A stretch of DNA of 64,000 nucleotides from a virus, in IMG/VR virus record IMGVR_UViG_3300028364_000018, positions 1 through 64,000 of that record; one strand, 5' to 3'. The notes under the pieces were generated by a model that was given only the letters and a program-made list of their open reading frames with translations, did not search any database and had not been told where the DNA came from. Shown here in pieces: positions 3,615 through 59,362 of this stretch. Position 1 is the first letter of the stretch. The number at the start of each line of letters is the position of its first letter. The position numbers and the translations under genes are program-made.

Positions 3615-3617
3615 TTC

Positions 3618-3652
3618 TTGACCAACCACTGCCGTTAAGTTAGATTAGGCAG
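3618..3652 (+). promoter_or_regulatory. sigma70-like leaderless promoter
   Basis: TTGACC-17-TAGATT-6nt-ATG(3653). Confidence 0.65.
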
Positions 3653-3913
3653 ATGAACAACAGTGATAAATTAACGGCAGCCAAACTTGCTTCGTCCTCA
3701 GCCTGGATAAGGTCCTGGCAGGATGGCATCAAGCGTCTCCAGAATCAAGGACGTCCCAAGGGATTGCCGGACATGCCTGGTAATGCCAACTACACTGATA
3801 CGGATAAGCCCCTGGGTTATAATCCCGAATTTATTTGGAACAATAATACGGTGACAGGATCGGGATCTGGACCCGAATTTGGCTTTGGCCCCACATCTGG
3901 AAGCGCCGAATGA
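3653..3913 (+). CDS. small putative virion protein (KLAS motif)
   Basis: 86-aa ORF directly after a promoter; AAKLASS. Confidence 0.55.
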   Translation: MNNSDKLTAAKLASSSAWIRSWQDGIKRLQNQGRPKGLPDMPGNANYTDTDKPLGYNPEFIWNNNTVTGSGSGPEFGFGPTSGSAE

Positions 3914-4734
3914 ATAGCCCAAGCCTAGCCCAAGCCCAGGTATTGGCGCAACAGGTCAACCAGAATAGACCTCAGGAGCATAACTGGACTTCCAGTCACC
4001 AGCTAGATAGCATGGGGCGACCTCTTAAATTGAATCTGACAGGAACCACCGCTCTAGCCAGCTTGCCTGAGAACAGCGAATGGCAGAGACAAAACCCAGA
4101 TCTTACGATACTCAGACGTTACAGAGGCCCGGCAACCCAAGGAACAGGCTCTTATCAGCTCGGAGAGTCCATTAGAGACGCGGTCACCAGTCCGAGTAAC
4201 ATGTGGAGGCGCAACATGCAGGGTGGACCTTTACGCGGTACACTAGTGGGCGGAGGCGTAGGAGGTCTCATGGGAGGAGCGCTGGGGGCCATCTTGGGTC
4301 TCATACGCGGGAGCGCCATGACAGGTCTTTCACGCGGAGCCCTCGTAGGAGGAGCTGCGGGAGGTCTACTCGGAGGGGTGGCCGGGAACAATCTAAGCAA
4401 GCAGGCATCTACCGGCTCAGCTAGAGAAGCGGTTGTAGACGCCTTACGGCGAGCGCCGGGACTGAGCTTCGCTGAGAAGTCCAGACTTCAACAGGGGGTA
4501 GGTAGGTTATCTGAGTCGGATGCCCAGACCCTTATACGCCTCCTGCAAACAGCTGGAGGAGGTGCTATTGGAGCATTGATAGCCAGATTCCTGATGGATA
4601 AAGGCTTGGCAGGAACGCTGGTTGGTGCTATAACAGGCGGGGTGATAGGGCGAGCACTGACCCGTCCCGGGCAAACCAACGCCTTCGGGCAGCGAGTCCA
4701 AACTGGACTCAACGCCTACGGACAACACTTTTGA
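3910..4734 (+). CDS. glycine-zipper putative internal virion/ejection protein
   Basis: Two GxxxG-rich hydrophobic segments (GTLVGGGVGGLMGGALGAILG; GAIGALIARF..GAITGGVIG); SKQAS motif. Confidence 0.55.
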   Translation: MNSPSLAQAQVLAQQVNQNRPQEHNWTSSHQLDSMGRPLKLNLTGTTALASLPENSEWQRQNPDLTILRRYRGPATQGTGSYQLGESIRDAVTSPSNMWRRNMQGGPLRGTLVGGGVGGLMGGALGAILGLIRGSAMTGLSRGALVGGAAGGLLGGVAGNNLSKQASTGSAREAVVDALRRAPGLSFAEKSRLQQGVGRLSESDAQTLIRLLQTAGGGAIGALIARFLMDKGLAGTLVGAITGGVIGRALTRPGQTNAFGQRVQTGLNAYGQHF

Positions 4735-4744
4735 AAAGGAAATT

Positions 4745-5365
4745 ATGAAATCACATCAAGCAGCATTTAACATAGGGCGAGGACTCGCGCAGGCCTGTGC
4801 CTCCGAGCGGTCCAACTCTACGGAGTATCAACAGAGCTTAACATCTACGTTGTGTAAGTCGGCTGGTTTTCAGAGCAAGATGTTTAGAGAGGTCCGAGAC
4901 ATGTACGACCTCTGTGATAAATCATACCGATTCGAGCGTCAGCTGTTCGATAAGGCGGCCAGCGACTGCCACAACCCGGACTCACAGGGCTTGAGAGAGT
5001 CGCTGTCCGAGATTGTACTGGAGTCTTTTGGTAGAGAGAAGCGGGCGGGCGTCAAAGGGGTGGCGTCGGCTGTGACCACCGCAGGTAGGGCTGGATTAGG
5101 CCTGGCTCCTGGGGTTCTGAAAGGGTTGTTGCTGGCAGGGTCCGCCACGGGCGCAGGTCTAGGTAGTCTAGCTTGGTATTTAAACAGGGACGCAAATCAG
5201 GACGACCAGGATATAAACCGAATGCAGGAGCAGATTGATACCTATAATAGGATCACTCATGAGATTAGCCAGAACCTGTACCGCAAGGGCGTGGGTGCTG
5301 AGGATATGACCGATGAGGAGCTTCGGGATATTTCAGGAGCGGACAGTGCTGAGGTATACGCATGA
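4745..5365 (+). CDS. putative virion protein with Gly/Ala-rich membrane segment
   Basis: KSAG, KAAS and KRAG motifs; hydrophobic LLLAGSATGAGLGSLAWYL followed by a coiled coil. Confidence 0.55.
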   Translation: MKSHQAAFNIGRGLAQACASERSNSTEYQQSLTSTLCKSAGFQSKMFREVRDMYDLCDKSYRFERQLFDKAASDCHNPDSQGLRESLSEIVLESFGREKRAGVKGVASAVTTAGRAGLGLAPGVLKGLLLAGSATGAGLGSLAWYLNRDANQDDQDINRMQEQIDTYNRITHEISQNLYRKGVGAEDMTDEELRDISGADSAEVYA

Positions 5366-5820
5366 GTACCCGAAGCGTGCAGGCGCAGGTACCTCCGGAG
5401 GAAACTGAGCAGGATAAACTGCTGGATATGGGAGGAGGCATCAGTCGGACTCTGACGCTTATACCATCCTACAAAGACAAAGACTCGGACGAGCTGGTGG
5501 AGAAAGAACGCCCTGTAGAACCGCCTGAAGTCATTTCTACAGATGAATGGGTAGACCGCCCGGTGATAAAGAACCAGGCGGAGCAGCACCCCAACACATG
5601 TCGCGAGACCGGCAGAGTTGCCCGGGTTCTAGACATGTCCATACCGGACCATGTCGACACATGGAACGACTGGTTAGTGGCTGTGAGGGAACAACGGGCT
5701 ATCATTCACGATCACGACCGCAATTTTTATGAAGGTAAATATTTTATTTATGCTGTATGCTCGTTTTTAGAGTATAAGCGTATTGCACCAACCAGGAAAG
5801 ACGATGGACAAACAAGCTGA
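5362..5820 (+). CDS. hypothetical protein
   Basis: 152 aa; coupled to both neighbours. Confidence 0.6.
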   Translation: MSTRSVQAQVPPEETEQDKLLDMGGGISRTLTLIPSYKDKDSDELVEKERPVEPPEVISTDEWVDRPVIKNQAEQHPNTCRETGRVARVLDMSIPDHVDTWNDWLVAVREQRAIIHDHDRNFYEGKYFIYAVCSFLEYKRIAPTRKDDGQTS

Positions 5821-7027
5821 ATTCTCACAAGCAGATTTACAACTCCTACGGAGTTACGCGACAGGTGGTTTAGCCATAGGGTCAGGCACCGCTCTGGCAA
5901 CCGCTATGCTCAACCACTGGAAGCAGCTCTCTAACGAGCGTATGAAAAGCCAACAGCTGGATGATGATGTCCTGACGGTAAAGGTCAAACGTCCAGCAAC
6001 AAAGCAGGCAATGGTCAGCGGAGGTCTGGGTTTAGCGACGGGCGCGCTTACGACCCTGGGTTCATACGCCGCGGTCCGCGCCGCGTATCAGGAGATGAAG
6101 AAACGACGCATGCAGAAACTTCTGGATGAGGCGCAGGTAAATTTCGCGGAGCTATCGTCTGAGGAGGCGCAACAGAAATTAGCGAGTGGTGGCAGGCCTA
6201 TGAGTCTGACAGACGTACTCACCGCATCCCCGGTGGCAGCAACCCTACTACTCGCCTTGGGGTCCGCTGGTCTGGCCAACACCTATTTGAAAAAGAACTT
6301 TCCCTCAACTAAACCAGCGAAACCTATCAAGCCGCGGAGAGTTGTATTAAAATACATGGACGACGAGCAGGAGAAAGAAGCCAGTCTGGATGAGGATAGT
6401 GGTTTCGAGCTTATGGTCAAGACGGTTCTGGCCGGACAGAAAGAGGCCCACGACCTACGGGACCTGGTGGGAGCCTGCGCTTCTGGACGGGCTCAGGAAG
6501 TGGAAGACAATTTAGGTACCGGTACAGAACTCGCGCTGGACCTCATTAAAGGAGCTTCCGCGGGTATGTCTGATACGGATTATGACCTAGGGGTCAGCTT
6601 GGCAGTCAGGCACCCGGTTATAGGCCCTGTAACCAAACTCCTGGCTTCAGCTGAGATGTTGGATATGGCCCCCTCACATTTGAAGATGGCACAAGCTCTG
6701 TCAGAGACGGATCAACTGGTACTAGCCGGATTGTTCTGCGCCGTGGGTGATGCCGACCGTTGGGATGGGCAGGATAAACTGGCGTCAATGCTGGAGACTA
6801 ACCCGGAGGTCCTAAGTCAGTTGGTTAAGGCTCTTAGAGGACAAGACGAGGATCCAGAGGTAGAAGAGGCCAAGGATGATCTGGAAGTCATGGGTCAAGG
6901 CGGAGCAGTGGACAACAGTGTGAGCGAGAAAGAAACACCGGAGCAGGCCGCCCAACGTATGGGTGTAGGATCTGCAGAGGACGACGTTATAGACGAGTTG
7001 TTCTCAACGGAAGCGGAAGAAAAATAA
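5804..7027 (+). CDS. putative virion protein with multiple K-x-A motifs and hydrophobic segments
   Basis: Likely start MDKQAE at 5804; KQAE, KQAM, KLAS, KEAS, KEAH, KGAS, KLAS; three Gly/Ala-rich hydrophobic stretches. Confidence 0.6.
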   Translation: MDKQAEFSQADLQLLRSYATGGLAIGSGTALATAMLNHWKQLSNERMKSQQLDDDVLTVKVKRPATKQAMVSGGLGLATGALTTLGSYAAVRAAYQEMKKRRMQKLLDEAQVNFAELSSEEAQQKLASGGRPMSLTDVLTASPVAATLLLALGSAGLANTYLKKNFPSTKPAKPIKPRRVVLKYMDDEQEKEASLDEDSGFELMVKTVLAGQKEAHDLRDLVGACASGRAQEVEDNLGTGTELALDLIKGASAGMSDTDYDLGVSLAVRHPVIGPVTKLLASAEMLDMAPSHLKMAQALSETDQLVLAGLFCAVGDADRWDGQDKLASMLETNPEVLSQLVKALRGQDEDPEVEEAKDDLEVMGQGGAVDNSVSEKETPEQAAQRMGVGSAEDDVIDELFSTEAEEK

Positions 7028-15319: not shown

Positions 15320-16168
15320 ATGTCGGAATATTTCGAAGAAGAAGTAGTTGAAGAGGGGGTTGTCATCAGGCTCTACCCAGACCAGGATGCGGAGGACCCG
15401 ACAGAGTGGTTGTTCGACGGAGGACTAACACTCCACGCATTCTCCCGGAACTACAGGCTGGGTGAGTCCCCGTTTAAGAACCCAGAGGATCTGGAGGAGT
15501 ACATGAAAGAGGTTTGGACGGACAAGGCCGAGGAGTTGTTTCCAGATCGTGTAGGTGAGCAAGCAGTCCTTCTATACTGGGACGGCGAGCTAAAACTCCG
15601 AGTTAAGCAGGTTTACCTTAGATGCGAGGATGAAGATACGGACGACACAGAAGTACTGAAGGCCTATTTTCTGAAAGATACTGATTATTACCTGGATCCT
15701 GATGAGTGTAGTTGGCGGGACCATCTAACAGCAGACGAACAACTAGAGGTGGAGAACGCGGCTAACAGCTTGTTCTTCCCTGTCTATCTCTACGACCATA
15801 GTGGGATCTCCATCAGCATGGGGCCGTTTGGGTGTCCATGGGATAGCGGGCAGGTCGGTTATATCGAGGCCGACCGGCAACGGCTGGTCAGGAACGGTTG
15901 GAAGATCGAGGACCTGACAAACGCTAAGTTAGAGGAATTGGCACAGTCAGCTATTGAAACCTATGATCAGTACCTCACGGGAGATGTGTGGGTGGTGACC
16001 ATCGAGTGGAAGTCAGATGACCCGGACGATCCACAGGAGTTCGAGGACAGTTGTGGGGGCTTCTACGGAGACGACCACGCTTGGGAAGATGGGCGGATCA
16101 TGGCGCAGGGTGTGGTGGAGCAGGTGCGGGAATACAAACAAAATAAGTGCGTAGGAGCGGGAATTTGA
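15320..16168 (+). CDS. acidic early-type protein with YDHSG...WDSGQVG motif
   Basis: PVYLYDHSGISISMGPFGCPWDSGQVGYI, a recurring motif in phage/ICE early genes. Confidence 0.65.
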   Translation: MSEYFEEEVVEEGVVIRLYPDQDAEDPTEWLFDGGLTLHAFSRNYRLGESPFKNPEDLEEYMKEVWTDKAEELFPDRVGEQAVLLYWDGELKLRVKQVYLRCEDEDTDDTEVLKAYFLKDTDYYLDPDECSWRDHLTADEQLEVENAANSLFFPVYLYDHSGISISMGPFGCPWDSGQVGYIEADRQRLVRNGWKIEDLTNAKLEELAQSAIETYDQYLTGDVWVVTIEWKSDDPDDPQEFEDSCGGFYGDDHAWEDGRIMAQGVVEQVREYKQNKCVGAGI

Positions 16169-31339: not shown

Positions 31340-32797
31340 GTGGGTGGGGTTTTTTATAGCTATGGCGATAACAGTTCTAGCATGGGTGGCGGGCATATGA
31401 CCGAGGACGATCTGGCCCAAGCTCAGAAGAGAGAAGATCTACAGGCCGACATCGAGCATTACGGACCTACTGTGATAGGCGCTTTGATTGTGGCGGGGGC
31501 TCTCGTCTACGTAGCTTATAAGGCCCTCCGTGGATAAGCGTCAATGGCGAGAGGATTGCACGGCCTTCTTGCTGGAACAACTCCTAGAAGCTGTTCTAGA
31601 AGGTCAACCTCAGAGTGTTGTAGTCGGACGAGATGACCCCCACGCGGCGGATCTACGCCTTCAATTCAAGCAGATGTTAATGGATATCTACATGAGGTTC
31701 GAACAACCTCGTTATAATGAACTGCAGATTGACGGATCCTTGGTAACGTTTATCGGAGCCGGACAGATTCGTGAGTGGCAAAAAACACACAGGATAGGCG
31801 TGGGTGAATTCTGGGACAACAGTTGCGCTCATTGGCAGGGTCCCTTCTGGGAACCCTCTGCTTGCACCGTCACAAACTTAATTAAGGAACCTATGCGCGA
31901 TTGGCGCATTTGAATAATATGAAAGTAGATGAAAGCATGATTCAGACGGTAGTGGCGGTTGCCGACCAGTACTACACAGATGATAGATCCAACGAGTTGT
32001 ACGATCTGCTAGGGGAGAAAGTTGGCGGGTTCCCCTCTATCTGGTTCGAAGTTGGCGTGTTTGCGCTGGCCATGGACCAACAATTAGCAGGCGAGTGGAG
32101 CATAGGAGCCCGGGAGTTCATAGATGACGTAATGGAGCTGACCCGCGATTGGATAACCCTCTGTCTGATGAACGGGACCTTCGTTACCTTCGACCACCTA
32201 TGGGATACACGCCTGGAACGTTTTAAGGTAGTGGTAGAGAGTACCACGACCTTGACGCATACAGTCTGGCCCTTAGCACCCAGAGGGGACGTGTCACAGG
32301 CACGGGCCTTGGCGTTGAAGGAGGTGCGGGACACCTGCGGAGCTCTAGCTAATCTCAGGGTTGTAGAAGTCAAGAGGGCCGCAGGTCGACCATGAAAACC
32401 TATAAAACGATGGATAGCCTTCTAAGGCGTTTGGCCTACAAAGGTCGGTCGAAGAAGTGGGAAAGGCGCAGAACGAAGAAAGCAACAAGATTACCCAAGG
32501 ATAAACATGCAGTACGTAGTTGAGATAGATAAATTGGACGACTCATTAGAGGCCTCGTATGTAGCTCGTAAACGGGGGGAGGTGGGGGGCACCTACCGCT
32601 CTGAACACCCGATGGTGTTCCGTAATCAGAGCGTGGCATCCAAGGTTCGCCGTAAGTGGAATAGGCAGACAGGCACCATAGCCACGGAGCGACCTTATGA
32701 CGCCCTGATACATCCGAACGTGGTGTTTGAGAAGGTGGTGGAGTTGGACCCCTATAGATTTGTTAAAACTGAAAAACAAATGGAGAAAATTAAATGA
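31340..32797 (+). CDS. run of small hypothetical genes (31340-31537, 31530-31913, 31901-32395, 32507-32797)
   Basis: Overlapping + strand ORFs; grouped because no function is recognisable. Confidence 0.5.
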
Positions 32798-34709
32798 CAA
32801 TATTATGCTTTTGCCCCTCGTGTGACCGCATCTACGCAGATGAAGACTTTTGCATAGATTGCACATATGAAGGTCATCCAGATGACGACGTTGAGCTTGA
32901 GGTTATAGGTGACTTTTCTTCCGAGCAACTAATCAACGCAAAAGCTGGCGGGATTGCCGACACAAAGGAGAACGTATGAAAAATGAGAACGATAAAAGCA
33001 ATTCCGCTGATTTTATGGTTGAAGTAAACGCAGATGACTTAATATCTGTTTTGCGCGGGATCACTCAAGGGAACTATATGGAGTTTTTAGTTGCCCAAAA
33101 CTACTACATCACAACAGGCCAGCACTCTTCGGTGCAGTCACTCATGGAGGCGTGGGTTAAGCACAACGCCGAAGTCCACCGGATCGACGAAGGAGAAGAG
33201 GCATGAAAAATGGAAACACTGCCTCAGATTGGATGGATGCGACAAAATCCGCGCCGCCAAGAAACAATGAATTTGAGGTTCTTCACTTCGGAGACCTTGC
33301 CGAGAAACATTGGCTAATCCAAAAGGGGAAATGGGATGAGTTTGGATTTTGCGGGGTGGAAAATGAGGAAGGTGAGCACTGCAAAGTTTCTACAATTACC
33401 CACTGGCGCATTTCTAACGAAGAGTTAGCGGGACGTGATTCTGAGCGTTCCGCTGATTGTATTATTGAAATACCCCCAAACCAAGATCGGTCATACGTTG
33501 ATTTATTAGATGCTATAAAACGCAATCCTTTTATGTTTTCGCCCAACTCCGACTTGTGCGGATCGACGAAGGAGATTCGCACGGAGGACTCGTTGTGATT
33601 ACAATCGAGGAATACAAAATGAAAAACTGGTATGAAGTCCATGAAGATCGTCGGAATTATCACGGCAACGGAAACGCAAATGGTTGTACCAATCGTTTCC
33701 ACACAGGGCAGTACGAAACTGCCGAAGAGGCGTTTGAATACGTCGAGAAAAGTAGAGGTTATGGATTTCACCGTCTTGTGGTGGTAAAATGTTCGGCTGA
33801 AATAATTAACGCAGAGATAGCGGGACGCGATTCTGAGCGTTCCGCTGATTGTCTGGTTGAAACGGATTACAGTAATGCCGTTGAACGTGCAACGAGGGCT
33901 GAAAACATATTGAGCCGTTTACTGTCAGGATTTTGGGTCCACATGATGAACGAAATTGCACCCGAGGAGGCAATGGGTGATCAGGTAACGGCATACTGGG
34001 AAAAATATAACGCCGAAACTGACCGGATCGACGAAGTAGATTCGGGCGAGGGTCTTGTTGAGACTAAAAAGGATAAGTCATGAGTCACCCTGAACCAAAT
34101 AATATCCATGACAGCTTACTAAACTGTGTGGCTTTTTGCTCCCGCGATTGGTCGCAGAACAAGCGGGACGCATGGATTTATGGAATAGTTTGCGGGTGGG
34201 AAGACGCCATAGAAGACGTGGCCCAAGATCATAACTGGACTCCTGAAGCTGTTAAACGCTTAGAGATGCTTCACGAGCAGTTCGAAGGCCTCAACACCGA
34301 ATTGGCTGGATCGACGAAGGAGAAGAGGCATGAGTCTGGTTGAAAATGATGGAGGTAAATTATGAAATCTATTTATGACAAAAAAGGGAGACCTATCCAC
34401 GTTGGTGATGTAATTAAAATCTACCATTTTACTGCGGCTTTAAGGCGTGAAAAAAACTACATGTACAAACATGTTAAATCTATAACCGAATATGATTTTG
34501 GCACTATGTACGTCCTAGACCATTTGGAAGAAGATCCAAAAACATTTGCGGTGAGAGCAGAGGGTGAAATTGTCCCACATTGGGAAGTCATTCAGGGATT
34601 TAACGGAGGCCACTTTAGCGAGAGACGAAAGCTCAACGCCGAAGTCTGCGGATCGAGCCATAGCGAAGACTCGCCCAATTGTCTGGTTGACCATAAGGAC
34701 GGTGAATGA
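32794..34709 (+). CDS. six cassette-like small ORFs (32794-32979, 32976-33206, 33203-33598, 33619-34083, 34080-34343, 34362-34709)
   Basis: Each ends in or runs through an attC-like hairpin, giving N-A-E-x-x-G/R C-terminal tails. Confidence 0.6.
32931..34692 (+). repeat. array of eight attC-like (59-base-element) imperfect inverted repeats
   Basis: xxxxAAC...GTTGAxx elements at 32931-33024, 33161-~33245 (degenerate), 33412-33470, 33541-33598, 33804-33862, 34005-34063, 34289-34345 and 34631-34692, with pairing inner arms. Confidence 0.8.
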
Positions 34710-34843
34710 TGCAATATAAAATCATTACAGCATTCGGCGTTAACCGCCTTGAGACTTTAGTGCGGAGGTGTTTGGATAAAGGCTGGATACCTAAAGGCGG
34801 ACCTTTTGTCCTCGGTGTGGAGATACTCCCAGAAGCCATTTAA
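34706..34843 (+). CDS. small DUF1737-like protein, possibly truncated
   Basis: QYKII..LETLV...LDKGWIPKGGP. Confidence 0.4.
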   Translation: MMQYKIITAFGVNRLETLVRRCLDKGWIPKGGPFVLGVEILPEAI

Positions 34844-34901
34844 GTACCTAACAGTGTTTGGAAGTGTTAAAATTAAACACAAAATAAAATACAAACAGGG
34901 G

Positions 34902-34936
34902 TTGACAGTATCGCAATAAGTATGTAAGGTATAACC
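34902..34936 (+). promoter_or_regulatory. sigma70-like leaderless promoter
   Basis: TTGACA-17-TAAGGT-6nt-ATG(34937). Confidence 0.6.
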
Positions 34937-35080
34937 ATGAATCAAGTAAAAAGAATGATGAGCTACCCCCGACGCATGTTCGAGCGCCTAACCCGGTTTT
35001 CGAACCACACAGGTCTGGCGCTGACAGAGATAGTCCGCCGGGCTGTTGATGAGTACCTGGATCGTAACGAAGTAAAATGA
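34937..35080 (+). CDS. ribbon-helix-helix DNA-binding protein (47 aa, not in ORF track)
   Basis: MNQVKRMMSYPRRMFERLTRFSNHTGLALTEIVRRAVDEYL; ATGA-coupled to tnpB. Confidence 0.75.
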   Translation: MNQVKRMMSYPRRMFERLTRFSNHTGLALTEIVRRAVDEYLDRNEVK

Positions 35081-36459
35081 AAGTCACACGCATCATAAAC
35101 GCCGAACCTAATCAGGCCTTGCTACCTATATGCAAGGCCACAGCGTTTATGCGTGCTGACATCTGGCGGCGTTACGGCGCACTAGGCACAGCCGGTAAAA
35201 GGTTGAACACCGTAAAACCCGAGCTGCCTGCGTTGTACAAGTACCTAGATCTGGACGGTACGATTCGGGCAGAGACTGCCAAAGACGTACTCAACGATAT
35301 ATACTCATACAAAGAGGCGGCCAAGGAGAGGGTGCGAAAGTCTGTTAGGAAGAGGGCCGAGACCGACGAGGAGTTGAAACGGTTGTACACCCTGCTTAAG
35401 AAAGATGAGTGGTTGGACGACAACTTCCTACACCGGCAGATGCGTAAGCACTTCAAGCACGGCGTAGCCCATTGCGCGAATCAATTTGTGGTTCGTAGTG
35501 ATAGGGTGCTGACCGAGGTAGTGGAAGGGCGCCTAGTTGTAATCCTAAAGATTGCACCAAAATACGGGAACTCTATAAGGCTGACTACCACAACAAGTGG
35601 TAAGAACGTAGACCTCAAGGGCTCGAACCTGCGAGTAATTGTGAAAGATACGGGGGTGGAGATCCACTACTGCGCAGACAAACAACCCGGACGAGCGCCA
35701 GGAGTGGGTAAGATTGGGGTGGATAAGGGTTACACTGAGGCGTTTGCCGATAGCCGGGGAGGTCTACACGGACAGGGTTTCGGGCAGACCATGACCAAGT
35801 TCAGCGACCGGGTTAAGGAGACGGGTAAGTCCCGTAACAAACTCCGCGCGTTGGAGGAGAAGCACCGGGAAGCCGGTAGGGTGGCTAAAGCAGACCGGAT
35901 TAATAAAAACAACTTAGGAAATAAGAAGATTGAGAGACGAAAAGAACGGACACAAAAGAGACTGCGGACAATCGCTTTCAAAGCGGCTCACGCAGTTGTT
36001 GACCATGCCTCCCATGTGGGAGCAGAAGATTTGAGTTCTCCGATATGCTCCAAGCATAAATGGAGGAATTACAATCGGAGAATGAGTTCCTGGGCCAAAG
36101 GCGTTTTAGCCGAGGCATTGGAAAACGTCACGCAACAGCGTGGCTCGAAGTTACAGCTTGTTGCTTCGGCCTACACATCGCAAATTGATTCACAGACGGG
36201 CTTGCTGGAAGGCCAGCGCGTCGGGGATCGGTTTTACCACGTAAGTGGGGATGTCAGTCAGGCCGACACCAACGCTGCACGAGTGATTGAGCGACGGATG
36301 GATGACCCGGAGATAGGGCGTTACACGCCCTTCAAAGACATCCGTCTGATACTACTCAATCGCTCTCCGGCGCAACTGAGCGTCAATAGGGTCGAGTTGG
36401 GATCTTTGGATCGTCAACCGACTGCGGATAAACTCAATGCGCACTTATACGCATACTAA
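35077..36459 (+). CDS. tnpB: TnpB RNA-guided endonuclease (RuvC intact, Zn-ribbon cysteines absent)
   Basis: IGVDKG (RuvC-I), AEDL (II), AYTSQ, ADTNAA (III). Confidence 0.9.
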   Translation: MKVTRIINAEPNQALLPICKATAFMRADIWRRYGALGTAGKRLNTVKPELPALYKYLDLDGTIRAETAKDVLNDIYSYKEAAKERVRKSVRKRAETDEELKRLYTLLKKDEWLDDNFLHRQMRKHFKHGVAHCANQFVVRSDRVLTEVVEGRLVVILKIAPKYGNSIRLTTTTSGKNVDLKGSNLRVIVKDTGVEIHYCADKQPGRAPGVGKIGVDKGYTEAFADSRGGLHGQGFGQTMTKFSDRVKETGKSRNKLRALEEKHREAGRVAKADRINKNNLGNKKIERRKERTQKRLRTIAFKAAHAVVDHASHVGAEDLSSPICSKHKWRNYNRRMSSWAKGVLAEALENVTQQRGSKLQLVASAYTSQIDSQTGLLEGQRVGDRFYHVSGDVSQADTNAARVIERRMDDPEIGRYTPFKDIRLILLNRSPAQLSVNRVELGSLDRQPTADKLNAHLYAY

Positions 36460-36476
36460 ATGAGGCAGGATTCAGC

Positions 36477-38477: not shown

Positions 38478-39275
38478 ATGAGTATGATCGACGAATTAGA
38501 AAAACAACTGCGAGAGCTCCGAAAGAAAGGAGAGGAGCAGGAGAGGCTGGATCTGGAAGAGGCAGTCAAGCCCTACATGAAACGCAGTTTCGTAGTATCC
38601 GGACCTTCTAGGAATCTGGATACTGTTCGGGTGGACCACGGGCTTATCAAGCTCAAATCATTTAAGCAGGATAAATGGAAGAACCTGGCCGTAGATGTCA
38701 GTATCAAGTATGTCGACTTCGCCGTTTCCCGATCCGGCCACAACCCGTTCGTTAGAAATGGGTTGTACACCCGGACTGACACTTGCAGCTTCTGTTTGAG
38801 TGATTGGAAGTCTTTCATCAGCGAGCTTGGCGACGAGGTAAGTAGCAGTGTGTTCGACCGGGTATTCCGGACAGTGGATGACCTCGGGTTGCTGGCTTCC
38901 CAAGAACTATGGGAGAAACACGGGTTGGAGACACTGGAGCAGAACGCAGGTCTCGTCGCATCAGAAAGTCGCAACTCCCTTGTTTGTAAGAAAAAGATGG
39001 CGTTGGACATACCGCATATCCAACTGGTAGGGGGCGACTCCTCTTACCTAGGCGGGGATTCTAACATCTTTATCCACGGAGATCTATACCTCATTAGCCG
39101 CGGCAGTCTGGAGCTGGCAGAGGAGCACCTAATCAGAAAGAGCGGGTTTGGGCTGAACCTAGCTACTACGAATCTCCTGGATGGAGAATACGGATACCTT
39201 GAACGCAGATCCTCAGACGTTAAGAGTTTGCGTGCGAGATTACAGGAAGCCGGTAAACAATTAAATAAGGATTAA
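38478..39275 (+). CDS. hypothetical protein
   Basis: 265 aa. Confidence 0.6.
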   Translation: MSMIDELEKQLRELRKKGEEQERLDLEEAVKPYMKRSFVVSGPSRNLDTVRVDHGLIKLKSFKQDKWKNLAVDVSIKYVDFAVSRSGHNPFVRNGLYTRTDTCSFCLSDWKSFISELGDEVSSSVFDRVFRTVDDLGLLASQELWEKHGLETLEQNAGLVASESRNSLVCKKKMALDIPHIQLVGGDSSYLGGDSNIFIHGDLYLISRGSLELAEEHLIRKSGFGLNLATTNLLDGEYGYLERRSSDVKSLRARLQEAGKQLNKD

Positions 39276-39276
39276 G

Positions 39277-40548
39277 ATGAAAGAATTACAGATTAAATGT
39301 CCGATTTGTGAGCAGTCGGGCGGGATCGAAGAGGTTTTGGTCAACGCGGTGGTGGTGACGCGCATGACGTTGCGGGAGGATAGCGACGGAGAGTTGGAAC
39401 CCGTGTACGAGCACCACAACGTGCTCTCAAGCGATGTAGAGCGCTACCAGTGCTTTTTCTGCGGTGGATTTCTGGCCGCTGATATGGAGAATCTCAAGGA
39501 GTTGGCGAGGGAGAATACCGAACTCACAACAAAGGAAAAGATGAATTTTAAACTAAACAAGAGCGGGGGTTGGATCATTCCCGCTGATACGCGCATCGAA
39601 CGTGACTGCGTTATACCCGCCCACAGTCAGCTTGGGGATGAGTGTGAGCTCGGGGATGAGTGTAAGCTGGGAGCGTGGTGTAAGCTGGGAGAGAGGTGTA
39701 AGCTGGGAGCGTGGTGTAAGCTTGGAGATGAGTGTGAGCTGGGAGTGGGGTGTAAGCTGGGAGAGAGGTGTAAGCTGGGAGAGGGGTGTAAGCTGGGAGA
39801 GAGGTGTAAGCTGGGAGCGTGGTGTAAGCTTGGAGATGAGTGTAAGCTTGGATATGAGGGTGAGCTGGGAGCGGGGTGTAAGCTGGGAGCGTGGTGTAAG
39901 CTGGGAGCGTGGTGTAAGCTGGGAGCGTGGTGTAAGCTTGGAGATGAGTGTGAGCTGGGAGAGTGGTGTGAGCTGGGATCGGGGTGTGAGCTGGGAGCGG
40001 GGTGTGAGCTTGGAGAGAAGTGTGAGCTTGGAGCGTGGTGTAAGCTTGGAGCGGGGTGTGTACGGCCGTTTAAGGGACCTATGCTCAAGTTAGTAGCTAC
40101 GGAGCTTGACGAGGACCTGGAAGTTCCTGAAGATATCAATTGGTCTATGTACGGACCCTTTATAAAGATGCATCTTGTTGAGGCGGGGCTAACCGAAGAG
40201 CAGGCAGACAGCGGTATAGCTCGTAGGTCGTTCTTAGCAAGGGCAGCGTTAGCGGGGTACTTGAGTAAAACCGAACCCAAGGTTAGTCAGAGGATAAAGG
40301 AACTTAGGCGGGAAACCAAGACCGCGGCAGAACAACTGGTTGAGACCGTGAACGTCACGGGCGGCCTAACACACCCACCAGCTGGCGGACCCGCAATTCA
40401 CGACTCTTGGTTGGACTTGGGCGAGGCTTATTTACAGGCATGCGCCGAGTTGGGCGTCGAACCACAATATGAGGAACAAGATGAACATCGAGGAACACCA
40501 GTTAGCGAACATGAGGAAAACCATCATAAACCACTGCGCCGAAACTAA
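39277..40548 (+). CDS. Zn-ribbon region fused to a hexapeptide-repeat (CKLGAW/CELGDE) beta-helix-like protein
   Basis: CPIC..CFFC; internal AAAGGA+ATG at 39541 suggests a second start. Confidence 0.6.
   Translation: MKELQIKCPICEQSGGIEEVLVNAVVVTRMTLREDSDGELEPVYEHHNVLSSDVERYQCFFCGGFLAADMENLKELARENTELTTKEKMNFKLNKSGGWIIPADTRIERDCVIPAHSQLGDECELGDECKLGAWCKLGERCKLGAWCKLGDECELGVGCKLGERCKLGEGCKLGERCKLGAWCKLGDECKLGYEGELGAGCKLGAWCKLGAWCKLGAWCKLGDECELGEWCELGSGCELGAGCELGEKCELGAWCKLGAGCVRPFKGPMLKLVATELDEDLEVPEDINWSMYGPFIKMHLVEAGLTEEQADSGIARRSFLARAALAGYLSKTEPKVSQRIKELRRETKTAAEQLVETVNVTGGLTHPPAGGPAIHDSWLDLGEAYLQACAELGVEPQYEEQDEHRGTPVSEHEENHHKPLRRN
39631..40059 (+). repeat. 18-nt tandem repeat (about 24 units) encoding hexapeptides
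   Basis: TGTAAGCTGGGAGCGTGG-type units. Confidence 0.9.
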
Positions 40549-47791: not shown

Positions 47792-48844
47792 CTATTGAAC
47801 CGAGTATAAAGCAGGAGGGCTATAAACTCCCCTGTTGCGAATGTTGATGGCTGCGTTTAAATCCGCATCCATACGATTATCACAAGCAGTACAAGCAAAG
47901 GCTTTCCCCTTACGGGAGGCCCGGTCTTGTACGCCGCACGCACTACAGGTCTGAGAAGTATAAGCCGGGTTGACCTTCGTAAAGGTCAACCCAGCTTCTT
48001 CACAAACAGATGCTAGCTTGCCCAAAACCTTTGGGTACGACCAGCGCTGTAGTTTGTTATTAAATTTCTTACTCATCTGCCCTCTGGATTTGTGCTTGAC
48101 CGACTTCAGGTCTTCAACCACAACCTCCCGTACCCCCGCCAAGTCCAACTTATTCACCACCCGGTTAATCAGGTTATCCCTCTCTGTCAGCGCCCGCTTG
48201 AAGGCCTGGGAGCCTTGTTTCTTACGTGCGATCTTTTCGTATTGAGCTTCAAGTTCCTGCCCATGCTCCACTCCTTCGGAGTCTGCGAGCAGCGTCTTGT
48301 AACCGCAATCATAACCAACGGACTTACCTTTCTTGACAGGAAGGGGCTCTACCTTCTCAGCATAAAGGTCCAAGTAATACCTATCCCCGGCCTTGCGTAG
48401 CCGGGAGCTCTGCTTGATTAAAAACCCTTTGTCCAGCAGGTCGAGCATATGACGATGCTTACGGCTAGGAAGATTTAGTATAATCTTAGATCCAAGACAG
48501 GAGAGTCTAAACCACACATCATATGAGTTTTGATCAAGTTTTATGTCTAAGAACCTAGCATCTAAGTTTATGGTCTTGCGTGTTAAGGTCGGTTTAGACT
48601 TCTTGCGCTTCTTACGTTGCGACTTAACGATCTCCAACGCTTGCTTACCCAGAGCCTGCTGTAATCGCGCGGATAACCATGTTGGGACTTTATAAGTAAC
48701 GAACTTGGAAGAAAAGTCCCGCTCATCCCACAACCTGTCAATAAACAGATTCACAACTTTAACCGACTCTTCCAGCACCCGGTCAAGCTCCAGTAGCTTT
48801 CCATGGTTGGAGTCTGCCAGATTAAATTGTATACGTCTAATCAT
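47792..48844 (-). CDS. tnpB: IS607 TnpB RNA-guided endonuclease
   Basis: VGYDCG, VVEDL, AYTSQTCSACG..CTAC, ADLNAAINI. Confidence 0.92.
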   Translation of the reverse strand: MIRRIQFNLADSNHGKLLELDRVLEESVKVVNLFIDRLWDERDFSSKFVTYKVPTWLSARLQQALGKQALEIVKSQRKKRKKSKPTLTRKTINLDARFLDIKLDQNSYDVWFRLSCLGSKIILNLPSRKHRHMLDLLDKGFLIKQSSRLRKAGDRYYLDLYAEKVEPLPVKKGKSVGYDCGYKTLLADSEGVEHGQELEAQYEKIARKKQGSQAFKRALTERDNLINRVVNKLDLAGVREVVVEDLKSVKHKSRGQMSKKFNNKLQRWSYPKVLGKLASVCEEAGLTFTKVNPAYTSQTCSACGVQDRASRKGKAFACTACDNRMDADLNAAINIRNRGVYSPPALYSVQ

Positions 48845-49406
48845 TACTAAGCTCTTTTATTAATTTTTCCGTTTTTCGCTTAGTTCTTCTAAGTCCGTAA
48901 AGTCTGGCACAAAAAGAGGTGACTAAAGACACAAAGTCTTGCATCAGATCTTGCTTGTCGTCCTCTACCTTATTGACCACCACCAATTCTGCATTACGCT
49001 CATCCATCAATACTTCAAGATACTTAAACCCGAACCTTGTTAGCCTGTCTTTATGCTCTACAATGATGCGCGTGTAAGTCGGATCTTTTAATAACCGCAG
49101 TAACTTAGGTCTTGCATCATTTAACCCGGAGCCCACCTCTTTTACTACAGCATCAACACCCCAACCTCTCGCGTTAGCGTATGCGACGAGTCTGCTGGCC
49201 TGCCCTTCTAAGTTAGATTCGTTCTGCGAGGAGCTAACTCTAGTGTAAATAGCAGTTTTTTCCGGGCGTTGTGGTGCATCCTCCGGTATAAGAATCTTAC
49301 CTAGGTCATCCTTAAACGCGCCGGGTATTTTGCCAAGGTTAAACCTGTTCCACGCAGCTCGGTACTGTATACCGTGCTGTTTTGCATATTTACTTAGTGT
49401 CAACAT
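48837..49406 (-). CDS. tnpA: IS607 TnpA serine recombinase
   Basis: N-terminal HTH; IYTRVSS; EVGSGLN; IIVEHKDRLTRFG. Confidence 0.95.
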   Translation of the reverse strand: MLTLSKYAKQHGIQYRAAWNRFNLGKIPGAFKDDLGKILIPEDAPQRPEKTAIYTRVSSSQNESNLEGQASRLVAYANARGWGVDAVVKEVGSGLNDARPKLLRLLKDPTYTRIIVEHKDRLTRFGFKYLEVLMDERNAELVVVNKVEDDKQDLMQDFVSLVTSFCARLYGLRRTKRKTEKLIKELSND

Positions 49407-56791: not shown

Positions 56792-58009
56792 ATGGCTGAC
56801 AAAGACTTAAAATTCATTCAAGAAAATGTGGACGGACTGTTTGAAGAACGCACAGTAACGCCCGTATCCGGACAGGCGTTGATGTTTGACTCAGAGGGGT
56901 TTCCCGTGAGTGGAAATGCCGCTGAACCTTTCACCCTCCACGACGTAACCAACGCCCAACGCCTCGCAGGAACACGCAACGACGACACCACGCCTCTTGT
57001 CGCTGGTGACACGGTGCGGGTGACTGACCTGCCTGATGACCCGATCATGCTTATGCTGGGTACTGGTGATTGGACTACGATTTCAGAGCCGTTACAGATG
57101 CCATATTTCACGGCCCATACTTTTGTAACAACCGCAACGGATACGGTAGAAGCTTACAACGGAGATATCCCCGACGACTTTGCTTCAACAAATAGTTTAG
57201 GAAGCGCAAAAGCCCTTTCTTTAGGTAATTCAGTTACATCTATTGGCAGTGAGGCTTTTTATAATTGCTCAGGATTTACAGGATATTTAAATATTCCTGA
57301 TTCCGTTACATCTATTGGAAATAATGCTTTTAGGAGTTGCTCAGGATTTACCAGTTTAACAATTCCTGATTCAGTTACAACAATTGGAAATAATGCTTTT
57401 AGGAGTTGCTCAGGATTTACCAGTTTAACAATTCCTGATTCAGTTACATCTATTGGAAGTTATGCTTTTGCTGGTTGCTTAGGATTAACAGGAAGTTTAA
57501 CAATTCCTGATTCCGTTACATCTATTGGAAATAATGTTTTTGCGTATTGCACAGGCTTCACAGGAAGTTTAACAATTGCTGATTCAGTTACAAGTATTGG
57601 AAGTTATGCTTTTTATACTTGCACAGGATTTACAGGAGATTTAAATATTCCAGATTCAGTTACATCTATTGGAAGTAGTGCTTTTTGGGGTTGCACAGGA
57701 TTTACAGGAGATTTAAATATTCCTGATTCAGTTACATCTATTGGAGGTCAGGCTTTTCAGGGTTGCTCAGGCTTCACAAGTTTAACAATTCCTGATTCAG
57801 TTACATCTATTGGAGGTGGTGTTTTTAGGGATTGCACAAACCTTACAAACGTAAATTGCTATGTAACCAAAACTATATTTAATCAAAGTAATGTTTTAGC
57901 AGGAACAGGAGTTACAACCTTACACGCCCTTGCAAGTGATGGAACATGGACAGCAGGTGCCGACACAATTGGTGGAAAAGCATTAACAGTAATTAAGGAT
58001 TTGGTGTAA
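56792..58009 (+). CDS. BspA-type leucine-rich-repeat (LRR_5) protein
   Basis: About 11 repeats of IPDSVTSIGxxAFxxCxGFT. Confidence 0.92.
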   Translation: MADKDLKFIQENVDGLFEERTVTPVSGQALMFDSEGFPVSGNAAEPFTLHDVTNAQRLAGTRNDDTTPLVAGDTVRVTDLPDDPIMLMLGTGDWTTISEPLQMPYFTAHTFVTTATDTVEAYNGDIPDDFASTNSLGSAKALSLGNSVTSIGSEAFYNCSGFTGYLNIPDSVTSIGNNAFRSCSGFTSLTIPDSVTTIGNNAFRSCSGFTSLTIPDSVTSIGSYAFAGCLGLTGSLTIPDSVTSIGNNVFAYCTGFTGSLTIADSVTSIGSYAFYTCTGFTGDLNIPDSVTSIGSSAFWGCTGFTGDLNIPDSVTSIGGQAFQGCSGFTSLTIPDSVTSIGGGVFRDCTNLTNVNCYVTKTIFNQSNVLAGTGVTTLHALASDGTWTAGADTIGGKALTVIKDLV

Positions 58010-58010
58010 T

Positions 58011-58808
58011 ATGAAAACTGTTCATTATACATCGGGACTTCCGAGAGCTTGCTCCAGCCTCCTCCAAAACCTCCTTGCCCAGAATCCTCAAGTCCATGCC
58101 ACGGCCACAAGCGGTGTGCATGAGATAGGGTATATCGCCCGTGGGTTCTTTGACACGGAAGAGTTCAAGACTTTCAAGAACCCACTTGACGGAGAACAGC
58201 AATACTATGACTTCCTCCGTGGCGGTATTCAATCCGCTTTCGACTCCCGTACAGACAGACCGATTGTGGTTGATAAGTGTCGTTCGTGGGTGGGGCACCT
58301 AGACCAACTCTTCAAAGTCTTTCCCGATGCAAAGGTGCTTGTTCCTGTTCGTGATGTCCGTGGAATCCTGACTTCCCTTGAGAAGAAACGAGCGCAACAC
58401 CCTTCACGATTTACGGGAGTGGAAAAAGCTAACCCGCAAAACTGGACGACCGTTGAAAAGCGGGCACAAGGTTGGCTTTCGATCCCACCCCTTTCAATCG
58501 CTCTTGAGCGCATTCATGATGCGGTGCGTACCCATAAAGGCAGGCTTCACTTTGTACACGCTGAAGACCTGACAAACGATCCACAAGAAACGATGAACAA
58601 GGTCTGGTCGTATCTGGGGATGGATCCATTTGTACACAACACCAATAACGTGGAACAATACACCACCGAACATGAGCTTGGATTCCCCTATGGGGACCAT
58701 AAAATAAGACCCAAGATCGAACCGCTTAAAAAAGAGTGGAACGAGGTATTGGGCAGAGATTTATCAAGCGCAATCGCAACAAAATTCCAATGGATAAACG
58801 AATTATGA
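58011..58808 (+). CDS. sulfotransferase family protein
   Basis: SGLPRACSSLLQNLL..NP; VDKCR; VRDVRGILTS; HAEDL. Confidence 0.85.
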   Translation: MKTVHYTSGLPRACSSLLQNLLAQNPQVHATATSGVHEIGYIARGFFDTEEFKTFKNPLDGEQQYYDFLRGGIQSAFDSRTDRPIVVDKCRSWVGHLDQLFKVFPDAKVLVPVRDVRGILTSLEKKRAQHPSRFTGVEKANPQNWTTVEKRAQGWLSIPPLSIALERIHDAVRTHKGRLHFVHAEDLTNDPQETMNKVWSYLGMDPFVHNTNNVEQYTTEHELGFPYGDHKIRPKIEPLKKEWNEVLGRDLSSAIATKFQWINEL

Positions 58809-59362
58809 AATACGCAATAACAGGACCAAGAGGACGGATATTTAATATCCTAGACGAAGAACCGCAACGGGAGCATTCTTCTCTTACGGACGAACAAGCG
58901 GTGCAAGCCTCCGAGGGTATCTGGTTCATCGTCGAAGGTGAGTTAAAAACACAGGCGGAGTTCCGTGTAGTGGCACAGGCACAGAGACAGGCTGAACGCA
59001 TGACTGAGCTGTATGCTCAAGACCCGGCCCAAGCCAAGGCACACAAACGCCAAGCGCTATCGGATGCACGCTACCAAGCGGAGATAGGAGGCACGACCTT
59101 CAACGGCATCCCCCTCCGCACGGACAGGCAGACGCAGGCAACGCTCACAAGCGCGATGCTCTTTGCGCAAGCCGATGCAAACTTCACGACTGACTGGAAG
59201 CTGGGCGATGGGCAATTTATCACGCTGGATGCCGCGACTGTCATCGGCCTTGCGGGTGCGGTTCTCTCCCATGTGCAGACGCAATTCACGCGGGAGAAAG
59301 ACCTAAATGCCCTTGTCGATTCCGCGACTACCGCCGAAGAACTTAACACCATCACTTGGTAA
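58805..59362 (+). CDS. DUF4376-like tail-fibre-associated protein
   Basis: RYQAEIGG..TDRQTQATLT..WKLGDGQFITLDA..VQTQFTRE; start at 58805. Confidence 0.7.
   Translation: MKYAITGPRGRIFNILDEEPQREHSSLTDEQAVQASEGIWFIVEGELKTQAEFRVVAQAQRQAERMTELYAQDPAQAKAHKRQALSDARYQAEIGGTTFNGIPLRTDRQTQATLTSAMLFAQADANFTTDWKLGDGQFITLDAATVIGLAGAVLSHVQTQFTREKDLNALVDSATTAEELNTITW

What the first reader, a model, noticed from the sequence alone, without database searches (positions are those of the whole stretch)
32931..34692. Integron-type attC cassette array inside a jumbo phage
Eight elements begin with xxxxAAC, most end with GTTGAxx, and they have pairing inner arms (e.g. AGCGGGACGC/GCGTTCCGCT at 33804; GTGCGGATC/GATTCGCAC at 33541). 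Six are 57-62 bp, the size of classic 59-base elements; two longer ones carry the next gene's RBS and ATG in their loop. Two are near-identical over ~45 nt. They recur every 130-340 nt, and small AT-richer ORFs end in or read through them. No integrase is in the window. Established: attC sites are IntI substrates. Inference: the phage has captured or borrows a host integron system, or runs its own, to shuffle early (possibly anti-defence) micro-genes downstream of motif copy 4.
Basis: partly seen in the sequence, partly recalled or inferred. Interest (0 to 1): 0.85.

Follow-up and report, generated by a model that had tools for sequence, protein, structure and literature searches.

The report
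In-frame attC-like phage gene joints
About eight 60-base hairpin repeats really do separate small genes in this large phage and mark where genes differ between related phage variants, but they are translated as in-frame linkers and no integron integrase is present, so this is an attC-like cassette system of a new variety, not a classic integron.

Summary
Seven full elements and one half element lie at 32931-34694. A covariance model built from them hits nowhere else in the 122-kb record. Each has (C/T)AAC, a 7-8 nt unpaired spacer, a covarying 9-10 bp stem with an almost invariant G.T, a variable loop, a second spacer and GTTG(A).

The same family bounds unrelated ORFs in a complete 40.5-kb temperate phage, its variants, a 62%-GC phage contig and short metagenome contigs. 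Close variants differ by whole ORF modules, and similarity breaks at or inside the elements.

New points:
- In 32 of 33 elements the AAC is an in-frame Asn codon of the upstream ORF.
- That ORF reads through to a stop-start overlap or fuses to the next module.
- The fold is on the sense strand (G.U 61 cells, A.C 8).

The integron reading is partly supported. The ends and geometry resemble phage-borne attC sites, and a homologous methyltransferase is bounded the same way in a published phage attC cluster. But the R box is only 4 bp, most stems lack extrahelical bases, breakpoints fall at both ends, and no IntI occurs in five element-bearing records.

Verdict: a new variant of attC/PeSL-like cassette joints; the enzyme or mechanism is unknown.

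The parts
32931..33026 (+). E1, the long form. The 5' arm and 3' arm enclose a ~50-nt loop that holds the SD, the ATG (32976) and the first codons of the next ORF.
   Evidence: R1 hit at 33.4 bits. A homologous long form occurs in L266.
33161..33206 (+). E2, a half element. It has the 5' box, spacer and 5' arm, then GAAGGAGAAGAGGCATGA with a stop-start overlap. There is no clear 3' arm.
   Evidence: Direct-repeat families D1 and D6. Not scored by R1.
33412..33472 (+). E3, an in-frame joint inside ORF 33203-33598. The 3' box is degenerate (ATTGA).
   Evidence: R1 51.5 bits; translation.
33541..33600 (+). E4. It ends in GTTGTGA, which supplies the stop of ORF 33203-33598.
   Evidence: R1 58.8 bits. 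87% identical to element i of L022 with compensatory stem changes.
33804..33864 (+). E5, an in-frame joint that fuses two independent modules within ORF 33619-34083.
   Evidence: R1 63.3 bits. Homologues match residues 1-65 only or about 80-135 only.
34005..34065 (+). E6. It is read through to an ATGA overlap with the start at 34080.
   Evidence: R1 62.6 bits.
34289..34347 (+). E7. It lacks the 3' arm, and the TGA inside GGTTGA stops ORF 34080-34343. An 11-residue mini-ORF (34330-34365, 12 codons with the stop) bridges to the start at 34362.
   Evidence: R1 52.3 bits; sequence.
34631..34694 (+). E8, a chimeric copy whose 5' arm does not match its 3' arm. It is read through to a TGA/ATG overlap at 34706.
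   Evidence: R1 53.9 bits. The intact version is in L388. Best hit of the attC-type model R2 at 20.4 bits.
32794..34843 (+). Chain of small ORFs joined by the elements: 32794-32979, 32976-33206, 33203-33598, 33619-34083, 34080-34343, 34362-34709 and 34706-34843. The last is truncated.
   Evidence: No Pfam or PHROG function. ORF 34706-34843 is cut at about 34822 relative to the 117-aa ORF in L388.
34838..36467 (+). Inserted unit that ends the array: a ribbon-helix-helix ORF (34937-35080) and a TnpB-like ORF (35077-36459).
   Evidence: Pfam and PHROG hits. Contigs of run X5 have loose ends at 34838 and at 36459/36467. Similarity to L388 stops at 34822.

Best explanation
The stretch is an array of small accessory-gene modules joined by a distinct family of attC-like 'joint' elements.

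Shown:
- Each element is a 55-65 nt hairpin on the coding strand (rarely ~95 nt). It runs (C/T)AAC, a 7-8 nt unpaired spacer, a 9-10 bp stem kept by compensatory changes with an almost invariant GGA/TTC segment holding a G.T pair, a variable loop, an 8-nt spacer, then GTTG(A).
- The AAC is an in-frame Asn codon of the upstream ORF. That ORF stops inside the element, or reads through to a stop-start overlap with the next gene, or fuses to the next module.
- The same elements bound unrelated ORFs in unrelated phages from lake-water and salt-lake metagenomes.
- Close variants differ by replaced, deleted or fused modules, with similarity breaking at or inside the elements.

Inferred:
- The elements are recombination joints that let micro-genes be exchanged among co-infecting phages.
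- Exchange works either through a structure-specific recombinase supplied in trans, or through short-homology or template-switch events at the folded coding strand.
- The fixed reading frame is a standard interface. Whatever module arrives next stays translationally coupled or fused, and the translating ribosome melts the hairpin.

The array is related to, or convergent with, integron attC sites, but it is not a canonical integron.
For: Structure and specificity:
- R1 hits lie only in the arrays of five records. There are none in 1.1 Mb of control phage DNA.
- Covariation beats all 500 shuffles and all slid versions.
- The conserved GGA is read in three different frames, so conservation is at nucleotide level.

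Strand: the coding strand folds better (-19.9 against -13.8 kcal/mol; 21 of 25 with DNA parameters). G.U cells number 61 and A.C cells 8.

Reading frame: AAC is in frame with the long upstream ORF in 32 of 33 elements, and 29 of 33 end in an ATGA, GTGA, TTGA or TGATG overlap.

Cassette behaviour:
- No tblastx similarity exists between the array ORFs of the window and of L022/G001.
- The two phages share only a leucine-rich-repeat/sulfotransferase block and a short C-terminal stretch (~120 aa) of a >1000-aa ORF.
- L047 has 98%-identical flanks but different modules. L226 lacks three modules, with the junction inside CAACGCAA.
- L388 is 92% identical to window 34347-34822, and the similarity starts right after E7.
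- Run X5 contigs break at 33598 and 34009.
- ORF 33619-34083 consists of two independent modules. Distant homologues of the 115-aa ORF lack the element-coded tail.

attC likeness: see R2 and the methyltransferase register.
Against: - No enzyme has been identified. The two best-studied carriers share no recombinase or nuclease.
- Recombination is inferred from comparisons, not observed. The edge of similarity around any repeat falls at the repeat by construction.
- Breakpoints occur at the 5' box, at the 3' box and inside the elements. This fits no single site-specific mechanism, and the conserved boxes (5-10 nt) are short for ordinary homologous recombination.
- The hairpin and its G.T could be kept for an RNA role alone.
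- The host is unknown.
Confidence: 0.5

Rival explanations
1. The elements are true integron attC sites, a cluster of attC sites lacking an integrase (CALIN). The coding strand acts as the recombinogenic 'bottom' strand, and the host's IntI excises and inserts hairpin-plus-ORF cassettes at AA|C.
For: - The AAC and GTT ends are conserved and paired, there is an unpaired central spacer and a variable loop, and the length is 55-65 nt.
- R2, built from seven phage-borne attC sites, hits E8, E5, the L388 copy and L022 g at 15-20 bits. It hits genuine Vibrio attC sites at 17-21 bits, only on their bottom strand, with no other hit at E<=1 in that 161-kb search.
- In phage PH101 the genes lie on the same strand as the published bottom strand.
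- Where bulges exist (the c/j type and the L383 family) they are in the 3' arm, as in bottom strands.
- The L022 methyltransferase and the one in MW202573's predicted attC cluster share N- and C-terminal register with their boundary sites.
- IntI1 recombined 5 of 6 phage attC sites tested in PMC9892861.
- The L226 junction lies in CAACGCAA.
Against: - No integron integrase in G000, G001 or three further carriers. G001's integrase scores nothing on TIGR02249, while the Vibrio phage control scores 494 bits.
- The R box is only 4 bp, and further positions pair at chance level. The canonical phage sites have 7-9 bp.
- Most stems are perfect, with a G.T and no extrahelical base. The spacer is 7-8 nt rather than about 5.
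- The same ORF carries different element bodies on both sides, and identical bodies sit between unrelated ORFs. Chimeric bodies occur.
- R1 does not hit Vibrio or MW202573 attC sites.
Confidence: 0.2
2. The elements act purely as RNA. The mRNA hairpins enforce translational coupling, or serve as processing or stabilising sites, in a long operon of foreign genes. The mosaicism is a by-product of ordinary recombination between conserved stretches.
For: - The fold is on the sense strand and tolerates G.U.
- In the long forms (E1 and L266), and in the L022 f and L226 copies, the SD and start of the next gene lie in the loop or the 3' arm. The upstream ORF ends at an overlapping stop.
- 29 of 33 elements end in stop-start overlaps.
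Against: - Many copies sit inside fused ORFs with no downstream start (E3, E5, L022 b, d, g, h).
- In many others the SD lies well downstream of the hairpin.
- This reading does not explain the invariant AAC and GTTG ends. It also does not explain why the family is shared at 80-90% identity by phages with different transcription systems and no other common genes in the arrays.
- No Rfam family matches, and there is no excess of terminators or promoters.
Confidence: 0.17
3. The elements are selfish miniature palindromic insertions that tolerate translation, like Rickettsia palindromic elements, and that spread into gene ends.
For: They are in frame, palindromic and multi-copy. Identical bodies occur at three different junctions. 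Homologues of the flanking proteins outside this phage group lack the element-coded tail.
Against: - The sequences on the two sides of an element are independent modules, not halves of one gene.
- The copies are confined to one array per genome rather than scattered.
- No Y1 transposase is present in any carrier.
Confidence: 0.06

Closest known systems
Integron attC sites, in particular attC clusters without an integrase (CALINs) reported in phage genomes (Qi et al. 2023, PMC9892861)
   Same: - Arrays of co-oriented small ORFs separated by 55-70 nt imperfect hairpins with conserved AAC and GTT ends, variable interiors and an unpaired spacer.
- A methyltransferase among the modules.
- No integrase in the phage.
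- Weak but specific cross-detection by a model of phage attC sites.
   Different: - The R box is 4 bp, not about 7.
- Most copies have no extrahelical bases.
- The spacer is 7-8 nt, and there is a conserved G.T.
- The elements are translated in frame and carry stop-start overlaps.
- Breakpoints fall at both ends.
- Not shown to be an IntI substrate.
PeSL (promoter-early stem-loop) cassettes of T4-type phages (PMC2839356, PMC4122927)
   Same: Short conserved structured repeats that flank small variable ORFs in plastic regions of large phages and coincide with insertions, deletions and replacements between close relatives.
   Different: PeSLs are intergenic promoter-plus-terminator units. Here there is no excess of promoters or terminators, the elements lie inside reading frames, and they are shared across unrelated phage lineages.
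Rickettsia palindromic elements (from general knowledge)
   Same: Palindromic repeats that are read in frame as part of proteins.
   Different: Those are scattered insertions inside single genes. These lie at boundaries between independent modules in a single array.
RNase III processing hairpins between the early genes of phage T7 (from general knowledge)
   Same: Irregular hairpins of about 60 nt with an internal loop, recurring between genes of one operon on the sense strand.
   Different: The T7 sites are intergenic and are not translated. No cleavage evidence exists here, and the lower stem is only 4 bp.

Membership tests
Integron attC site | Conserved, paired AAC...GTT triplets at the two ends | tested here: met
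   AAC is invariant and GTT nearly invariant. The pairs A-U, A-U and C-G are kept in 28-29 of 29-30 copies.
Integron attC site | R''/R' core sites RYYYAAC / GTTRRRY, complementary over about 7 bp | tested here: not met
   Only (C/U)AAC/GUUG pairs. The next three positions pair at 39%, 43% and 14%, against 42%, 31% and 16% expected. The canonical phage sites show 7-9 bp with covariation.
Integron attC site | L box with extrahelical bases, and an unpaired central spacer of about 5 nt | tested here: inconclusive
   The main family has perfect 9-10 bp stems with a G.T and 7-8 nt spacers. The c/j type and the L383 sister family have one bulged base in the 3' arm.
Integron attC site | The recombinogenic folded strand is the bottom strand, complementary to the cassette ORF | tested here: not met
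   The coding strand is the one that folds. The same inverted polarity is seen in phage PH101 and appears in MW202573.
Integron attC site | An integron integrase (IntI) in the element or genome | tested here: not met
   PF00589 gives no hit in G000. TIGR02249 gives no hit in five carriers. G001's integrase is not IntI, while the control scores 494 bits. The host genome is unknown.
Integron attC site | Detection by the curated attC covariance model (IntegronFinder or HattCI) | not testable with these tools
   That model is not available here. A proxy built from seven phage attC sites gives 15-20 bits on four elements, similar to its scores on Vibrio attC sites.
Integron attC site | Exchange at a single point, so that each ORF keeps its own site | tested here: not met
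   The 85-aa ORF has different bodies on both sides in L022 and L047. The methyltransferase has different downstream bodies in L022 and L226. Identical bodies lie between unrelated ORFs, and E8 is chimeric.
Integron attC site | Recombination by IntI in vivo | not testable with these tools
   This needs an attC x attI assay.
PeSL | An early sigma-70 promoter joined to a terminator stem-loop, intergenic | tested here: not met
   Four promoter-like sites against 5.7 expected, and three terminator-like sites against 5.2 expected. The elements lie inside ORFs.
PeSL | Flanks the insertions, deletions and replacements between close relatives | tested here: met
In-frame palindromic insertion elements (RPE-like) | Interrupts an otherwise contiguous gene | tested here: not met
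   The flanking parts have separate homologues.
IS200/IS605-derived hairpin elements or REP sequences | A cognate Y1 (HUH) transposase | tested here: not met
   PF01797 gives no hit in five carriers. The TnpB-like genes of the window belong to a serine-recombinase IS and to a stand-alone unit.
Known RNA families (Rfam, including CRISPR repeats) | Match to a curated model | tested here: not met
   No credible hit at E<=10.

The most novel reading that the evidence does not exclude
A phage-borne cassette system may exist in which attC-like hairpin sites are built into the reading frame.

- Each site starts at an Asn codon and ends at a stop-start overlap or a fusion point, so any module can be joined to any other and still be translated.
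- The sites are exchanged among unrelated phages of one habitat.
- The active strand is the coding strand, and no integrase is linked to the array.
- This implies either a new trans-acting structure-specific recombinase or an enzyme-free, hairpin-guided template-switch mechanism.
Probability: 0.3. Interest if true: 0.85.

Novelty: new variant of a known kind. Interest (0 to 1): 0.68.

Why it matters
Phage genomes are mosaics, yet few sequence devices that organise the exchange of small accessory genes are known; PeSLs and a handful of predicted attC clusters are the examples.

Here a structured joint family is shared by a ~190-kb RNA-polymerase-encoding phage, a 40-kb temperate phage and others from lake-water and salt-lake metagenomes. 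It comes with natural variants that differ by whole modules.

The in-frame design links recombination to translation. It offers a way to swap, fuse or split micro-genes, which may include anti-defence genes, without losing expression.

It also suggests that some 'attC clusters' predicted in phages may be a separate, phage-adapted class with inverted strand polarity. That is directly testable with existing integrase assays.

Tried and rejected
- **Protein-level linker motif:** rejected. The conserved GGA and the core are read in two or three frames among copies.
- **CRISPR-like or any Rfam RNA:** no match.
- **Promoter or terminator units:** no excess.
- **A generic AAC...GTTG hairpin descriptor:** not specific, with 30 hits per strand against 8-19 in shuffles. 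It was dropped.
- **Extra pairing in the spacers:** none at any offset.
- **Relatives of the window phage:** the upstream ORF gave none. The downstream phosphatase-like ORF gave only distant phages without elements.
- **Portal relatives of G001:** relatives at 33-50% identity lack the elements.
- **Cultured phages:** no blastn match to the array or to a single element.
- **Exact-pattern scans of bacterial genome contigs and metagenome contigs:** Absence from bacteria is not shown.
- **A sample of 400 further genomes of the class of G006 (the Methyloglobulus MAG, i.e. Gammaproteobacteria):** no new match, but this search has low power.
- **Host identification through the TnpB protein in the protein atlas:** only viral clusters.
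- **Sequencing runs:** no RNA holder is listed. The contigs laid were short and of low depth, and no joint across a cassette was recorded.
- **Functions of the window's cassette ORFs:** none found in Pfam or PHROGs.

Full report
**Context.** The window is the first 64 kb of a 122,487-nt IMG/VR virus record, estimated 63% complete. It encodes RNA-polymerase beta-like proteins. The nearest cultured relatives are ~180-kb Vibrio and Salmonella phages at about 33% identity. All genes around the finding lie on the + strand. The stretch 32.8-34.8 kb holds a chain of small ORFs with no Pfam or PHROG function. It is slightly AT-richer than its flanks.

Direct-repeat analysis recovers the elements. An alignment of six window copies with nine copies from another phage gives a consensus of three parts. 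These are a 4-bp outer helix (C/U)AAC/GUUG, a 7-8 x 8 nt internal loop, and a 10-bp inner helix. Six inner pairs show compensatory changes, and a G.U is present in 14 of 15 copies.

The covariance model R1 finds seven elements in the window at 33-63 bits. It finds nothing else in the entire record. An HMM of the same alignment finds nothing in 1.1 Mb of unrelated phage DNA.

On 30 distinct copies, 92% of cells pair. There are 44 double-change cells against 13.6 in shuffles (0 of 500 reach the observed score), and sliding the partner destroys the signal.

E1 is a 96-nt long form whose loop holds the next gene's SD and ATG. A homologous long form exists in contig L266. E2 is only a 5' half. E7 lacks its 3' arm. 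E8 is a chimera whose intact version is seen in a 92%-identical relative.

**The family exists elsewhere, with different genes between the copies.** Exact-pattern scans and R1 find it in several places:
- a complete 40.5-kb phage with terminal repeats (G001, the same phage as loci L006 and L022), with 10-11 copies in 2.8 kb between the portal and capsid genes;
- its variants L047, L054, L226 and L245;
- a 62%-GC phage contig (L378);
- short metagenome contigs (L206, L262, L266, L388).

A sister family with another hairpin but the same ends occurs in L383.

The ORFs between the elements of the window and of G001 show no similarity. An all-against-all protein comparison finds only two shared pieces outside the arrays. 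One is a leucine-rich-repeat/sulfotransferase block at 75-92% identity. The other is a short C-terminal stretch (~120 aa, 70% identity) of a >1000-aa ORF. I take this as a hint that the two phages meet in the same host. Sequencing runs that hold the stretch are lake-water and salt-lake metagenomes.

**Evidence that modules are exchanged at the elements.**
- L047 shares 98%-identical flanks with G001 but carries other modules.
- L226 lacks three modules. Its junction lies inside the shared octamer CAACGCAA of two otherwise different elements.
- The 85-aa ORF of L022 (5225-5482) recurs in L047 at 89% identity, with different element bodies on both sides.
- One identical body lies at three junctions between unrelated ORFs.
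- L388 matches window 34347-34822 at 92%. The match starts immediately after E7. It ends where the ribbon-helix-helix/TnpB-like unit has cut the last array ORF.
- Contigs of run X5 stop matching exactly at 33598 (the end of E4) and resume at 34009 (the AAC of E6).
- ORF 33619-34083 is a fusion of two modules that occur separately elsewhere, joined by E5.
- Distant homologues of the 115-aa ORF lack the element-coded tail.

A caveat applies. Around any repeat, the edge of similarity falls at the repeat by construction. Only the chimeric bodies and the octamer junction speak to mechanism.

First, the elements are part of the reading frames. In 32 of 33 copies the AAC is an Asn codon of the long upstream ORF; chance would give one third. 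In 29 of 33, that frame ends in an ATGA, GTGA, TTGA or TGATG overlap with the next start. Otherwise it runs on into the next module. A one-base indel between the L022 and L226 versions of one element switches between stop/restart and in-frame fusion of the methyltransferase. The conserved GGA is read in three frames, so the constraint is on nucleotides, not on a peptide.

Second, the fold belongs to the coding strand. Mean energy is -19.9 kcal/mol for the coding strand and -13.8 for its complement. The coding strand is more stable in 21 of 25 copies with DNA parameters. G.U cells outnumber A.C cells 61 to 8, or 33 to 8 without the invariant pair.

**Comparison with integrons: points against membership.**
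- No tyrosine recombinase occurs in the record.
- No integron integrase occurs in five carriers.
- G001's integrase is generic, whereas the IntIA of a Vibrio phage used as control scores 494 bits.
- R1 does not hit 15 genuine Vibrio attC sites or the predicted sites of phage MW202573.
- The R box pairs over 4 bp only, against 7-9 bp in the canonical phage sites.
- Most stems have no bulged bases.
- Breakpoints fall at both ends and inside the elements.

**Comparison with integrons: points for a relationship.**

Qi et al. (PMC9892861) reported attC clusters without an integrase in phages. They showed that IntI1 recombines five of six sites tested.

A model (R2) built from seven of those phage sites, taken in gene-sense orientation, gives three results. 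It detects further PH101 sites. It detects Vibrio attC sites only on their bottom strand, at 17-21 bits. It detects four of the present elements at 15-20 bits. No other hit at E<=1 appears in that 161-kb search, and E8 and E5 remain the two best hits when 30 kb of the window is scanned with filters off.

In PH101 the genes lie on the strand published as the bottom strand.

The methyltransferase of L022 is 44% identical to the one in MW202573's predicted attC cluster. In both, the first six codons lie in the 3' end of the upstream site. In both, the final conserved Asn is the AAC of the downstream site. In MW202573 too, ORFs read through the sites to ATGA overlaps.

So these joints are plausibly a divergent, phage-adapted relative of attC sites, with the coding strand playing the part of the bottom strand.

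**Other comparisons.**
- PeSLs of T4-type phages (PMC2839356, PMC4122927) are the closest functional analogue. They are intergenic promoter-terminator units, and there is no excess of such signals here.
- There is no Rfam match and no Y1 transposase.
- The RPE-like reading fails because the flanks are independent modules.

**Mechanism.** I commit to recombination joints with a built-in translational interface (confidence 0.5).
- Shown: the structure, the strand, the frame, the sharing between phages, and the module differences.
- Inferred: that the elements cause the exchange, and how they do it.

A canonical IntI-dependent reading keeps 0.2. An RNA-only role keeps about 0.17. The long forms, and the copies whose SD sits in the 3' arm, make a translational-coupling role likely in addition, whatever the DNA-level mechanism.

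**Limits.** The host is unknown. The curated attC models could not be run. The scans of bacterial genome contigs and metagenome contigs were truncated. A sample of 400 further genomes of the class of G006 (a Methyloglobulus MAG, hence Gammaproteobacteria) gave no new match. No RNA data are available.

Noticed in passing
window 34838-36467: A ribbon-helix-helix ORF (34937-35080) plus a 460-aa TnpB-like ORF (35077-36459) form an insertion. It truncates the last array ORF at about 34822; the relative L388 has the full 117-aa ORF and two more elements. Contigs of run X5 have loose ends at both borders. They also show a 62-nt replacement at 36292-36355, near the 3' end of the TnpB-like gene.
   Followed up: partly
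window 47792-49406 (-): An IS607-type pair: a serine recombinase (189 aa, Resolvase domain) followed by TnpB (350 aa). It is a second TnpB-family element in this phage.
   Followed up: no
window 56792-59362; G001 3735-6050: A three-gene block (BspA-type leucine-rich-repeat protein, sulfotransferase and an unknown ORF) is shared at 75-92% protein identity with the otherwise unrelated 40.5-kb phage. The two phages also share a short C-terminal stretch (~120 aa, 70% identity) of a >1000-aa ORF (G000 102146-105376 against G001 39128-39691). I read this as a hint of a common host and recent gene flow.
   Followed up: partly
L022 3556-3615 and 4647-4705; 4488-4650 and 6578-6745: Within the G001-type array, the end of the leader ORF is duplicated. 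So is the terminal element together with the start of the downstream gene. The pattern looks as if two arrays had been joined in tandem.
   Followed up: partly
L383 1-1000: A sister family of joints. The ends are the same (AACGCCGCC ... GCGGATGGTTGT), but the hairpin is different, 11 bp long with one bulged base in the 3' arm. The joints are again in frame and are followed by an SD and an overlapping start. R1 barely detects them, so the superfamily is wider than the model shows.
   Followed up: partly
L389 (MW202573) 2060-3730: In this published phage attC cluster, ORFs also enter the predicted sites with AAC as an in-frame Asn codon. Several end in ATGA overlaps or in the TAG or TAA of the core sites. 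The annotated methyltransferase start (2794) appears too far downstream: homology supports a TTG start at 2686, inside the site.
   Followed up: partly
window 34330-34365: An 11-residue mini-ORF (12 codons with the stop; MSLVENDGGKL) starts inside E7 and ends in an ATGA overlap with the start at 34362. It may relay ribosomes between the two genes.
   Followed up: no
G003 (contig of L378) 15882-15946 (-): A further R1 hit (28.9 bits) lies 8 kb away from the two elements examined in this 62%-GC phage contig. It was not inspected.
   Followed up: no
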